Positions 55,017 through 58,703 of a stretch of 64,000 nucleotides of DNA are shown one piece after another. The notes under the pieces are model-generated. The model worked only from the letters and a program-made list of their open reading frames with translations, was not told the DNA's origin and did no database searches. Every line of letters begins with the position of its first letter. Positions within the stretch are counted from its first letter, which is position 1. Location of the stretch: the NCBI RefSeq assembly GCF_053078305.1, contig NZ_CP166879.1; one strand, 5' to 3'. Made by a program: the position numbers and the translations under genes.

Positions 55017-56995
<1,979 letters not shown>

Positions 56996-56997
<2 letters not shown>

Positions 56998-58135
56998 GTC
57001 AGAGCCCCTCGATCTCAATCAGTTAGCGCAAAAAATTAAACAGTGGGGGCTGGAACTGGGCTTTCAGCAGGTAGGTATTACCGATACCGATCTCAGCGAG
57101 TCCGAGCCCAAACTGCAAGCATGGCTGGACAAACAATACCACGGCGAAATGGACTGGATGGCACGTCACGGTATGTTGCGCGCCCGCCCTCACGAATTAT
57201 TGCCCGGTACGCTGCGCGTGATCAGCGTGCGGATGAATTACCTTCCTGCTAACGCCGCATTTGCCAGCACGCTGAAAAACCCCAAACTCGGCTATGTCAG
57301 CCGTTATGCGCTGGGCCGTGACTATCACAAACTTCTGCGCAACCGACTCAAAAAGCTGGGCGAGATGATTCAGCAACATTGTGTTTCGCTGAATTTTAGA
57401 CCGTTTGTCGATTCTGCGCCTATTCTCGAGCGCCCGTTAGCTGAAAAAGCTGGGCTCGGCTGGACAGGTAAGCACTCACTTATCCTCAATCGCGAGGCCG
57501 GTTCGTTCTTCTTTTTAGGCGAATTGCTGGTCGATATTCCGCTGCCCGTGGATCAACCAGTCGAGGAAGGATGCGGCAAATGCGTGGCCTGTATGACGAT
57601 TTGCCCGACCGGTGCCATCGTCGAGCCATATACCGTCGATGCTCGCCGCTGTATCTCTTATCTCACCATCGAACTGGAAGGGGCGATCCCGGAAGGGTTG
57701 CGACCGTTAATGGGAAACCGTATTTACGGTTGCGATGACTGCCAGCTTATCTGCCCGTGGAATCGCTATTCACAACTCACTACAGAAGACGATTTCAGCC
57801 CGCGTAAGCCGCTACACGCACCGGAACTCATTGAGTTATTCGCCTGGAGCGAAGAGAAGTTTTTAAAAGTCACGGAAGGTTCGGCGATTCGCCGTATAGG
57901 TCACCTGCGCTGGCTGCGTAATATCGCCGTGGCATTAGGCAATGCGCCCTGGGATGAAACGATTCTGGCGGCGCTGGAGAGTCGCAAAGGTGAGCACCCA
58001 CTTCTTGATGAGCACATAGCGTGGGCGATGGCGCAGCAAATCGAGAGGCGAAATGCGTGCATAGTCGAAGTGCAATTGCCGAAAAAACAGCGTCTGGTTC
58101 GGGTGATTGAAAAAGGGTTACCGCGTGACGCCTGA
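56996..58135 (+). CDS. queG: Epoxyqueuosine reductase
   Basis: 379 aa from MSEPLDLNQ; Cys clusters CGKCVACMTICP and CDDCQLICP; start overlaps the divergent nnr start. Confidence 0.9.
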
Positions 58136-58404
58136 TTCATCCACAGCTTGTGAATAAAAATAAAAACGCATTGCAATTCAAGACGAATAAAATCGTCAAG
58201 TGATCGACTCGACAAAACGGAATCTTAATTTTTAACTTACCTATCAATAGGTTAAAAAAATACTATTCACCGTGCGAAGTTTCTTTGAAATTAAGATTAC
58301 AGCCTGAGGCTGTGGATAACTCTGTTTACAAGAGTTTGTCAGAGACAACAAAAACCAGCAATAACGCATCGCGTCGCTGTGGATATTTTATTGAGAGAAG
58401 AATT

Positions 58405-58480
<76 letters not shown>

Positions 58481-58515
58481 TTGGGTGGTCTGTGCCTTAC
58501 AGCACTTTCAAATTT

Positions 58516-58591
<76 letters not shown>

Positions 58592-58627
58592 TTGGGTGGT
58601 CTGTGCTTTGCAGCACTTTTCAAATTT

Positions 58628-58703
<76 letters not shown>

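What the first reader, a model, noticed from the sequence alone, without database searches (positions are those of the whole stretch)
56995..56998. Divergent nnr and queG start codons overlap
The nnr start (minus strand, 56997..56995) and the queG start (plus strand, 56996..56998) share two base pairs, so the two promoters and ribosome-binding sites are embedded in each other's coding sequence. This gives scope for transcriptional interference.
Basis: seen in the sequence. Interest (0 to 1): 0.2.

Follow-up and report, generated by a model that had tools for sequence, protein, structure and literature searches.

The report
nnr–queG head-to-head start-codon overlap
Two E. coli genes that point away from each other (nnr and queG) really do begin on the same four bases, CATG, so each gene's expression signals lie inside the other gene; this is real and anciently conserved, but it is already in the reference annotation and the pair is already published as a "divergent excludon".

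Summary
Window 56995-56998 is CATG: nnr starts on the minus strand at 56997 and queG on the plus strand at 56996, exactly as annotated in E. coli K-12 and by PGAP. Both starts have comparative support. The CATG junction, and a Shine-Dalgarno for nnr made of queG codons 4-5, are kept in 33 Enterobacterales species. QueG homology to the solved B. subtilis enzyme begins at residue 6. The queG promoter is an extended -10 (TGGTATACT, 56956-56964) inside nnr codons 12-14. A published 5'-end map puts the queG start of transcription 22 nt before its ATG. The same element survives in species where nnr no longer overlaps queG. Published data list yjeS/yjeF (queG/nnr) among the top 20 protein-coding double-stranded-RNA clusters (about 56977-57332 here), and queG-nnr as one of 16 divergent excludons in MG1655. 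Not settled: the nnr transcription start (candidate conserved TAAAAT at 57398-57393, or read-through from glyVXY/yjeV), direct N-terminal evidence for Nnr, and whether the overlap actually regulates either gene.

The parts
56995..56998 (.). CATG: shared start-codon tetranucleotide (nnr ATG = 56997..56995 on minus; queG ATG = 56996..56998 on plus)
   Evidence: Sequence. Annotated identically in MG1655 and by PGAP. Invariant in 33 Enterobacterales species.
55450..56997 (-). nnr (yjeF) CDS, 515 aa, bifunctional NAD(P)HX epimerase/dehydratase. First gene of the nnr-tsaE-amiB-mutL-miaA-hfq... superoperon.
   Evidence: ORF. Pfam YjeF_N residues 40-199 and Carb_kinase 258-496. Annotation. Operon per PMC4161252.
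56996..58135 (+). queG (yjeS) CDS, 379 aa, epoxyqueuosine reductase
   Evidence: ORF. Pfam QueG_DUF1730 and Fer4_16. Homology to B. subtilis QueG (5d08) from residue 6.
56956..56964 (+). queG promoter: extended -10 TGGTATACT (TG 56956-57, hexamer TATACT 56959-64), antisense of nnr codons 12-14 (S-I-P)
   Evidence: My scan. Conserved as TGnTAnnnT in all aligned loci, including Pectobacterium, Brenneria, Photorhabdus and Xenorhabdus, where nnr does not overlap. Published -10 assignment 'gtgtGGTATACTtacg', PATSER 5.22, TG extension = yes. The published delta-PqueG primers delete about 56939-56966.
56974..56995 (+). queG 5' leader (about 22 nt) from the mapped TSS to the ATG; antisense of nnr codons 1-8
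   Evidence: TSS/start distance -22, 454 reads, frequency 2 (PMC2760140 Table S1). The right edge of the p19 dsRNA cluster maps to about 56977. Synonymous sites of nnr codons 2-4 are nearly invariant.
57005..57010 (-). nnr Shine-Dalgarno GAGGGG (plus strand CCCCTC = queG codons P4-L5), 7 nt before the nnr ATG
   Evidence: Sequence. A 4-5-nt SD-like core 4-9 nt upstream of ATG1 in all 33 species. queG codons 2-10 are among the most synonymously constrained in the gene.
56977..57332 (.). Region corresponding to published dsRNA cluster S-361 (yjeS/yjeF; U00096.2 4,391,754-4,392,109): complementary queG-sense and nnr-sense transcripts
   Evidence: PMC7373196 Table 2. Coordinates converted with an offset of 1977 between U00096.2 and U00096.3. 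The offset is my inference from the genome lengths; it is consistent with the spf cluster. Window and K-12 are colinear here with 6 mismatches.
57393..57398 (-). Candidate nnr promoter -10 (TAAAAT on minus), 396 nt upstream of the nnr ATG, inside queG codons 133-135. Inferred, not mapped.
   Evidence: Scan. GGTCTAAAATTCAGCG is invariant in 20 Enterobacteriaceae sequences (19 species plus the window) and uses the AGA Arg codon, which is rare in E. coli (codon rarity is general knowledge, not a tool result). Codons 131-135 are the most synonymously constrained 5-codon window of queG (normalised entropy 0.0 against a gene mean of 0.62).
56980..56982 (-). Alternative in-frame nnr start (codon 6, ATG; MKKNPV...)
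   Evidence: Sequence. ATG, GTG or TTG at this codon in 17 of 33 species, absent in the other 16. One MAG (L020) has a 1-nt indel that leaves only this start in frame.
58118..58171 (-). yjeV small ORF, convergent with the queG 3' end and on the nnr strand. Published as part of a yjeV-queG-nnr 'noncontiguous operon'.
   Evidence: Annotation in L001 and MG1655. PMC12288877 Table 1.

Best explanation
nnr and queG are a genuine head-to-head overlapping gene pair that share CATG.

Shown:
- queG is transcribed from an extended -10 sigma-70 promoter that lies inside nnr codons 12-14. Transcription starts about 22 nt before the queG ATG, so the whole queG promoter and leader are the antisense of the first ~14 codons of nnr.
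- Translation of nnr from ATG1 is supported by a conserved Shine-Dalgarno formed by the antisense of queG codons 4-5.
- nnr-sense RNA runs antisense through at least the first ~336 nt of queG, because double-stranded RNA from this stretch is captured in vivo.

Inferred:
- The nnr-sense RNA starts at a conserved TAAAAT inside queG (57398-57393), and/or arrives by read-through from glyVXY/yjeV across the whole of queG.
- The two 5' ends are then complementary over roughly 350-400 nt. RNA polymerases collide or occlude each other's promoters, and the paired RNAs are cut by RNase III. The pair would behave as a divergent excludon in which high expression of one side lowers the other.

The arrangement is ancestral to Enterobacterales. 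The queG -10 element has been read as S-[I/L]-P-[H/Q] in the Nnr N-terminus since before the Enterobacterales/Alteromonadales split.
For: Sequence and annotation.

Conservation of the exact CATG register: 33 Enterobacterales sequences plus a Tolumonas MAG and a gammaproteobacterial MAG.

nnr ATG1:
- An SD-like core is present 4-9 nt upstream in 33 of 33 species.
- No other in-frame ATG, GTG or TTG occurs before codon 38-42 (inside the conserved N-terminal region; the Pfam YjeF_N match starts at residue 40) in 9 species.
- The 12-nt insertion in L008 and L012 is in frame.
- The +1 frame has 1-3 stops in every species, while the nnr frame has none.

queG ATG: homology to solved B. subtilis QueG starts at residue 6. 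The mapped TSS at -22 excludes the upstream in-frame GTG at 56888.

queG promoter: TGnTAnnnT is conserved even where nnr is not adjacent or does not overlap. The published -10 and TSS match it.

Overlapping transcription: p19 dsRNA cluster S-361, 5634.8 RPM, type 5' overlap, also scored Y for Lybecker dsRNA and for Conway overlapping operons. queG-nnr is one of 16 divergent excludons, and yjeV-queG-nnr one of 3 noncontiguous operons.

Synonymous-site constraint falls exactly on the embedded signals: queG codons 2-10 and 131-135; nnr codons 2-4 and 12-14.

K-12 data transfer directly to the window: 6 mismatches and no indels across 56900-57420, none in any signal.
Against: - No direct evidence for the Nnr N-terminus. 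The N-terminomics and initiation-profiling supplements that I could reach do not list nnr or queG.
- The nnr TSS is not mapped in any data I could read. The TAAAAT candidate has a poor -35 (3 of 6) and no TG extension, and it degenerates to CGAAAAT/CGGAAAT outside Enterobacteriaceae.
- The mapped queG TSS rests on 2 reads and lies 9-10 nt after the -10 hexamer, slightly far.
- No experiment showing that either gene's expression changes when the other's promoter is altered. The published delta-PqueG strain was assayed only for datA RNA and replication timing.
- Pectobacteriaceae have separated the two genes, so the overlap is dispensable.
- The generic promoter scan found nothing here, because it requires a -35.
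Confidence: 0.75

Rival explanations
1. The CDS overlap is an annotation choice. Nnr is really translated from the in-frame codon-6 start (ATG 56982..56980, MKKNPV...), so the coding sequences are separated by 13 bp. The 'MTDHT' conservation only reflects the queG leader on the other strand.
For: - Codon 6 is ATG, GTG or TTG in 17 of 33 species, 16 of them among the 20 Enterobacteriaceae.
- MAG L020 carries a 1-nt indel that puts ATG1 out of frame and leaves MKKNPASIPH in frame.
- Synonymous invariance of nnr codons 2-4 could be imposed by queG.
- No direct N-terminal data were found.
Against: - Codon 6 is not a start codon in 16 of the 33 species: Cedecea, Mangrovibacter, one of the two Pantoea, Serratia, Yersinia, Rahnella, Hafnia, Budvicia, Acerihabitans and Edwardsiella. 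In nine of these there is no alternative start before codon 38-42, inside the conserved domain.
- ATG1 has an SD-like core at 4-9 nt in all 33 species. In E. coli codon 6 is preceded only by ACGGAC.
- M, V and L at codon 6 are also simply similar hydrophobic residues.
- L020 is a metagenome bin, and the indel lies in a T/A-rich stretch.
- Even if this rival is true, the promoters and RBSs remain embedded in each other's genes.
Confidence: 0.1
2. The anatomy is as described, but the overlap has no regulatory role. It is a neutral product of genome compaction and 5' extension of nnr into a short intergenic region, and the dsRNA is an unavoidable by-product.
For: - Overlapping 5' ends are common: 136 of 388 divergent operons.
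- No reciprocal-expression experiment for this pair was found.
- Among outgroups the nnr start wanders between about +2 and -45 relative to the queG ATG.
- Pectobacteriaceae separated the genes, and in Photorhabdus, Xenorhabdus and Proteus nnr is not adjacent.
- The delta-PqueG strain had no replication-timing phenotype.
Against: - The exact CATG register is held in 33 Enterobacterales species and two outgroup loci.
- The pair ranks among the top 20 protein-coding dsRNA clusters in stationary phase and passes the excludon criterion in at least 50% of the RNA-seq data sets.
- Strong synonymous constraint sits on the embedded signals. This, however, shows only that the signals matter, not that interference does.
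Confidence: 0.3
3. queG uses a different start: the upstream in-frame GTG at 56888, or a downstream codon.
For: The mechanical ORF extends 36 codons upstream to GTG 56888. The SD for the annotated ATG is weak (TATGGTCCGTC).
Against: - The mapped TSS at -22 lies downstream of GTG 56888.
- No in-frame ATG, GTG or TTG lies between the TSS and the ATG.
- The ATG is invariant in all loci.
- The protein is conserved from residue 4 onward, and homology to B. subtilis QueG starts at residue 6. The next in-frame ATG is codon 52.
Confidence: 0.03

Closest known systems
Divergent excludon (Sesto et al. 2013 concept; E. coli map in ExcludonFinder, NAR 2025, PMC12288877)
   Same: Neighbouring divergent genes whose transcripts overlap at their 5' ends, giving dsRNA that RNase III cuts. 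queG-nnr is itself on the published list of 16 E. coli divergent excludons, and on the p19 dsRNA list.
   Different: In most listed excludons the overlap lies in the untranslated regions around an intergenic spacer (mean 95 nt in E. coli). Here there is no spacer at all and the start codons themselves overlap. Mutually exclusive expression has not been shown for this pair.
Overlapping 5' ends of divergent operons in E. coli (Conway et al. 2014, PMC4161252)
   Same: Promoters are arranged so that the 5' transcript ends are complementary. The nnr (yjeF) operon is that study's most complex operon. The p19 paper scores this locus as a Conway overlapping transcript.
   Different: The average overlap there is 168 nt. 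Here it is at least ~350 nt and lies wholly within coding sequence.
Divergent (head-to-head) overlapping gene pairs in prokaryote annotations (Huvet & Stumpf 2014, PMC4161906)
   Same: The coding sequences overlap at their 5' ends on opposite strands. Such overlaps are thought to arise by 5' extension to a new start codon.
   Different: This is the rarest class: 2 of 663 overlapping pairs in E. coli. Many such cases are start-site mis-annotations, whereas here both starts have comparative support.
Noncontiguous operon (Saenz-Lahoya et al. 2019; yjeV-queG-nnr in PMC12288877)
   Same: Same-strand genes (yjeV ... nnr) are separated by an opposite-strand gene (queG) that is transcribed antisense to a through-transcript.
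   Different: Classification is from RNA-seq coverage only. Whether a single RNA runs from glyVXY/yjeV into nnr was not verified here.

Membership tests
Head-to-head overlapping CDS pair | Two adjacent genes on opposite strands whose annotated start codons overlap | tested here: met
   CATG at 56995-56998. Both ORFs were read and match the MG1655 and PGAP annotation.
Head-to-head overlapping CDS pair | Both annotated starts are the real translation starts | tested here: inconclusive
   Comparative evidence is strong: SD plus ATG1 in 33 of 33 species, no alternative start in 9 species, QueG homology from residue 6, and a TSS at -22. No N-terminal peptide or initiation-profiling data could be obtained. 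A codon-6 start for nnr is not excluded in E. coli.
Divergent excludon | Divergent neighbours whose transcripts overlap at their 5' ends | tested here: met
   Taken from published tables, not from raw reads. The queG TSS is at -22, inside nnr. dsRNA cluster S-361 spans the junction. The pair is listed as a divergent excludon in at least 50% of RNA-seq data sets.
Divergent excludon | dsRNA formed by the two transcripts is processed by RNase III | tested here: met
   The cluster was captured by p19, which binds ~21-nt RNase III products (PMC7373196). This is literature evidence only.
Divergent excludon | Mutually exclusive or anticorrelated expression of the two sides | not testable with these tools
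   No expression data for this pair were accessible, and no paper found tests it.
Extended -10 sigma-70 promoter | TGnTATAAT-like element about 7 nt upstream of a mapped TSS, able to work without a good -35 | tested here: met
   TGGTATACT (5 of 6 hexamer matches plus TG). The -35 is poor (3 of 6). The published TSS lies 9-10 nt downstream with 'TG extension = yes'. The element is conserved across all loci, including those where the region is non-coding.
Noncontiguous operon (yjeV-queG-nnr) | One transcript covers the same-strand genes and runs antisense through the embedded opposite-strand gene | not tested
   Only the published classification was seen. Two terminator-like hairpins lie on the nnr strand at 58313-58299 and 58215-58193. 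Read-through from glyVXY into datA is published.

The most novel reading that the evidence does not exclude
The overlap is not incidental but an ancient dual-coding module. Since before the Enterobacterales/Aeromonadales/Alteromonadales split, the queG extended -10 box (TGTGGTAnACT) has doubled as the S-[I/L]-P-[H/Q] motif of the Nnr N-terminus. A second conserved element (TAAAAT, kept by a rare AGA codon in queG) would drive nnr from inside queG. Under this reading the arrangement enforces anticorrelated expression of the tRNA-modification gene queG and the nnr-tsaE-amiB-mutL-miaA-hfq superoperon, possibly coupled to cell-cycle-dependent read-through from glyVXY/datA. The Pectobacteriaceae, which carry a relic of the old nnr 5' end still abutting queG, would be a natural 'uncoupled' control.
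Probability: 0.15. Interest if true: 0.5.

Novelty: already known. Interest (0 to 1): 0.22.

Why it matters
The case is a clean, well-supported example of the rarest class of gene overlap in bacteria. It shows how tightly expression signals can be packed: a promoter read as protein on the other strand, and a ribosome-binding site read as Pro-Leu.

It matters practically for anyone who edits this locus. Deleting or tagging the 5' end of either gene removes the other gene's promoter or RBS, and nnr heads the operon that carries tsaE, mutL, miaA and hfq.

As a discovery it adds little. The overlap is in the reference annotation, and the overlapping transcription is published.

Tried and rejected
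- The generic sigma-70 and terminator scan of 56500-57500 found nothing. It requires a -35, so it misses the extended -10 promoter.
- Rfam search at a permissive threshold: no RNA family at the junction. Hits were only the three tRNA-Gly genes and two far-sub-threshold matches.
- TSS and TIS data sets without usable content:
  - Thomason 2015 is not held.
  - The ROSE supplement has no hit.
  - Adams 2021 lists only a 3' end inside yjeF.
  - Conway 2014 and ExcludonFinder supplements are not held.
  - The Cappable-seq GTF is truncated.
  - Kim 2012 has no hit.
  - TRAINSPOTTER N-terminomics has no hit.
  - The Meydan 2019 supplement is not held.
- A proximal nnr promoter just upstream of its SD (TTTAAT/TAATTT around 57030-57040) was rejected. 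The bases are not conserved: synonymous entropy is normal from queG codon 13 onward.
- GATAGT with a TG extension at 57326-57321 was considered as the nnr promoter. A start from it (about 57314) would lie inside the dsRNA cluster, about 18 nt short of its far edge at about 57332, so it cannot account for the whole cluster.
- The test for a tandem duplication behind the Pectobacterium/Brenneria spacer gave only weak support. L033 relic against the real nnr 5' end: score 23, reached by 6 of 500 shuffles. L029: no signal.

Full report
**1. What is in the sequence**

Window 56995-56998 reads CATG. On the minus strand, ATG 56997..56995 opens a 515-codon [21 protein letters not shown]... It carries Pfam YjeF_N (residues 40-199) and Carb_kinase (258-496), so it is Nnr. 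On the plus strand, ATG 56996..56998 opens a 379-codon [21 protein letters not shown]... It carries QueG_DUF1730 and a double 4Fe-4S domain, so it is QueG.

The window is E. coli: 99.7% identical to strain DSM 103246, and 95-99% identical to nearly all of 5425 complete genomes. MG1655 annotates queG at 4392928..4394067 (minus) and nnr at 4394066..4395613 (plus), which is the same 2-bp overlap. PGAP annotates it the same way in two other strains.

**2. Is it more than chance or annotation habit?**

- The 66-nt junction is at least 95% identical in 5425 of 5426 E. coli genomes.
- A scan of one genome per species returned 80 loci.
- In 32 non-E. coli Enterobacterales species, tblastn places Nnr residue 1 exactly one base beyond QueG residue 1. 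These include Escherichia albertii, Citrobacter, Enterobacter, Kluyvera, Cedecea, Pluralibacter, Mangrovibacter, Pantoea, Serratia, Yersinia, Rahnella, Hafnia, Budvicia, Acerihabitans and Edwardsiella.
- The DNA shows an invariant CATG in all of them.
- The same CATG overlap is seen in a Tolumonas MAG and in a gammaproteobacterial MAG.
- Head-to-head overlaps are the rarest class. One survey found 663 overlapping adjacent pairs in E. coli: 586 co-oriented, 75 convergent and only 2 divergent (PMC4161906). That paper does not name the two pairs.

**3. Are both starts real?**

*queG.*
- The ATG is invariant.
- The protein is conserved from residue 4.
- Homology to the solved B. subtilis enzyme (5d08) begins at residue 6.
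- A published TSS 22 nt upstream (see section 4) excludes the in-frame GTG 36 codons upstream.
- No other in-frame start lies in the leader.

*nnr.*
- ATG1 is preceded in all 33 aligned species by an SD-like core (GAGG, AGGAG, AAGG, AGGA or GGAG) at 4-9 nt. In E. coli this is GAGGGG, 7 nt upstream.
- In nine species there is no other in-frame ATG, GTG or TTG before codon 38-42. That position lies within the conserved N-terminal region; the Pfam YjeF_N match starts at residue 40.
- The only length change between ATG1 and the conserved domain is a 12-nt in-frame insertion in L008 and L012.
- The nnr frame is open in all species, whereas the +1 frame has 1-3 stops in every species.

*The rival start.* Codon 6 (ATG in E. 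coli) is ATG, GTG or TTG in 17 of 33 species, 16 of them among the 20 Enterobacteriaceae. It is absent in the other 16: the more distant genera plus Cedecea (L018 and L019) and Mangrovibacter. One MAG (L020) has a 1-nt indel that leaves only this start in frame. I could not obtain initiation-profiling or N-terminomic data for either gene. ATG1 is therefore strongly favoured, but it has not been shown directly.

**4. Where are the expression signals?**

*queG promoter.* The alignment shows a strikingly conserved GTGTGGTA(T/A)ACT about 32-43 nt upstream of the queG ATG. In the window this is TGGTATACT at 56956-56964, an extended -10 promoter: TG, one base, then TATACT. It has only a poor -35.

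On the other strand the element encodes Nnr S12-I13-P14. The synonymous sites of these codons are invariant.

The element also persists as TGnTAnnnT, at the same distance from the queG ATG, where nnr does not overlap. This holds in Pectobacterium and Brenneria, where nnr starts about 146 bp away. It also holds in Photorhabdus and Xenorhabdus, where nnr is not within the 2.5 kb upstream of queG. It is therefore conserved as a promoter, not only as coding sequence.

Published evidence agrees. Mendoza-Vargas et al. 2009 (PMC2760140, Table S1) list a 454-mapped 5' end for yjeS at -22, frequency 2. They assign the sigma-70 -10 box 'gtgtGGTATACTtacg' (PATSER 5.22) and set the TG-extension flag to 'yes'. 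That places the TSS at about 56974, in nnr codon 8. A later study defined its delta-PqueG deletion so that it removes about 56939-56966 (primers in PMC10950094).

*nnr SD.* The nnr SD (minus 57010..57005) is the antisense of queG codons P4-L5. queG codons 2-10 are among the most synonymously constrained in the whole gene.

**5. Overlapping transcription**

- Huang et al. 2020 (PMC7373196, Table 2) list cluster S-361 'yjeS, yjeF' (U00096.2 4,391,754-4,392,109; 5634.8 RPM). It is among the top 20 protein-coding dsRNA clusters captured by p19 in stationary phase. It is typed as a 5' overlap, and is also positive in the Lybecker dsRNA set and the Conway overlapping-operon set.
- With an offset of 1977 between genome versions, this cluster corresponds to window ~56977-57332. 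The offset is my inference from the genome lengths; it is consistent with spf. One edge sits at the queG TSS, and the other lies 336 nt into queG.
- The window and K-12 differ by 6 substitutions and no indels across 56900-57420. None of the substitutions falls in a signal.
- ExcludonFinder (PMC12288877, Table 1) lists queG-nnr among the 16 divergent excludons of MG1655. It also lists yjeV-queG as a convergent excludon, and yjeV-queG-nnr as one of three 'noncontiguous operons'.
- Conway et al. describe the yjeF...rlmB operon as the most complex in their data set. They report that 136 of 388 divergent operons overlap at their 5' ends.

What is not in the papers I could read is a test of reciprocal regulation for this pair.

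**6. The nnr promoter (inferred)**

No nnr TSS was found in accessible data. Ranking synonymous constraint over the whole of queG in 20 Enterobacteriaceae sequences (19 species plus the window) puts codons 131-135 (SLNFR) first. Their normalised entropy is 0.0, against a gene mean of 0.62.

On the nnr strand this stretch reads GGTCTAAAATTCAGCG, with a TAAAAT -10-like hexamer at 57398..57393. The leading T of the hexamer comes from queG using AGA for Arg135, a codon that is rare in E. coli (general knowledge). Yersinia, Serratia and Pantoea use CGN there, which gives GAAAAT.

A start here would lie about 390 nt upstream of the nnr ATG. That is compatible with the extent of the dsRNA. The alternative, or additional, source is read-through from glyVXY/yjeV across queG. 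I rate the TAAAAT assignment as plausible but not shown.

**7. Evolution**

In Alteromonadales (L068, L074) the nnr start lies 19-25 nt upstream of the queG ATG. Even so, nnr still reads through the queG -10 box as S-[I/L]-P-Q. The promoter-inside-CDS arrangement is therefore older than the start-codon overlap itself.

In Pectobacterium betavasculorum, nnr starts MMTDHDRKRGDDLPDSVF about 144 bp away from queG. A relic, ATGATGGGCCAC... (MMGH...LPY, now with stops), still abuts queG and carries an intact TGGTAACAT. This indicates that the overlap was ancestral and was later resolved by an insertion. Statistical support for a tandem duplication is weak.

**8. Verdict**

The feature is real, conserved and mechanistically understandable. 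It is already annotated, and it is already published as a divergent excludon. Interest is low to modest.

The residual open points are the true Nnr N-terminus, the nnr TSS, and whether interference has any physiological role.

Noticed in passing
window 57386-57401 (queG codons 131-135): GGTCTAAAATTCAGCG on the minus strand is invariant in 20 Enterobacteriaceae sequences. It is the most synonymously constrained 5-codon window of queG and uses the AGA Arg codon, which is rare in E. coli. It contains a TAAAAT -10-like hexamer facing nnr, so it is a candidate internal nnr or antisense promoter.
   Followed up: partly
window 57467-57485 and 57989-58005 (queG codons 158-164 and 332-337): Two similar DNA elements, GGTAAGCACTCACTTATCC and GGTGAGCACCCACTTCT (shared pattern GGTRAGCACYCACTT), have invariant synonymous sites in 20 Enterobacteriaceae sequences. 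They rank just behind the two elements above in synonymous constraint. The first contains TTATCCTCA (57480-57488), an 8-of-9 match to the DnaA-box consensus TTATCCACA, about 0.7 kb from datA. Their function is unknown.
   Followed up: partly
window 56986-57039: An out-of-frame ATG 10 nt upstream of the queG ATG lies inside the 22-nt leader. It is the antisense of the nnr His4 codon and is conserved in most Enterobacteriaceae. It opens a 17-codon ORF ([17 protein letters not shown]) that reads across the queG start. The queG ATG itself has only a weak SD. Whether this upstream ATG is used is unknown.
   Followed up: no
L029 2358-2502 (Pectobacterium betavasculorum); L033 (Brenneria roseae); L036 (P. 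zantedeschiae): Pectobacteriaceae have separated nnr from queG, by about 145 bp in L029 and L033 and about 1.2 kb in L036. In L029 a decayed copy of the old nnr 5' end (ATGATGGGCCAC..., with stops) still abuts queG and keeps the queG -10 box. The spacer shares TTAGCAAGCAAC...CGCCAG between Pectobacterium and Brenneria. Support for a duplication origin is only weak.
   Followed up: partly
L020 about 2460-2502 (MAG 'Proteobacteria bacterium CTSoil_132'): A 1-nt indel between nnr ATG1 and codon 6 leaves only the MKKNPASIPH start in frame. This is either a real shift to the second start or an assembly error in a T/A-rich stretch.
   Followed up: no
window 55450-55478: nnr and the downstream tsaE (55017..55478, minus) overlap co-directionally by 29 nt, as annotated in K-12. 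Published 5'-end and 3'-end maps also list an internal TSS at +1113 of yjeF and a 3' end inside yjeF.
   Followed up: no
window 58118-58703: Downstream of queG, on the nnr strand, lie the yjeV small ORF (it overlaps the queG 3' end by 18 nt), the datA region, and three identical tRNA-Gly(GCC) genes at 58405-58703. Two terminator-like hairpins lie on that strand at 58313-58299 and 58215-58193. Published work shows that read-through from the glyVXY promoter crosses datA.
   Followed up: partly
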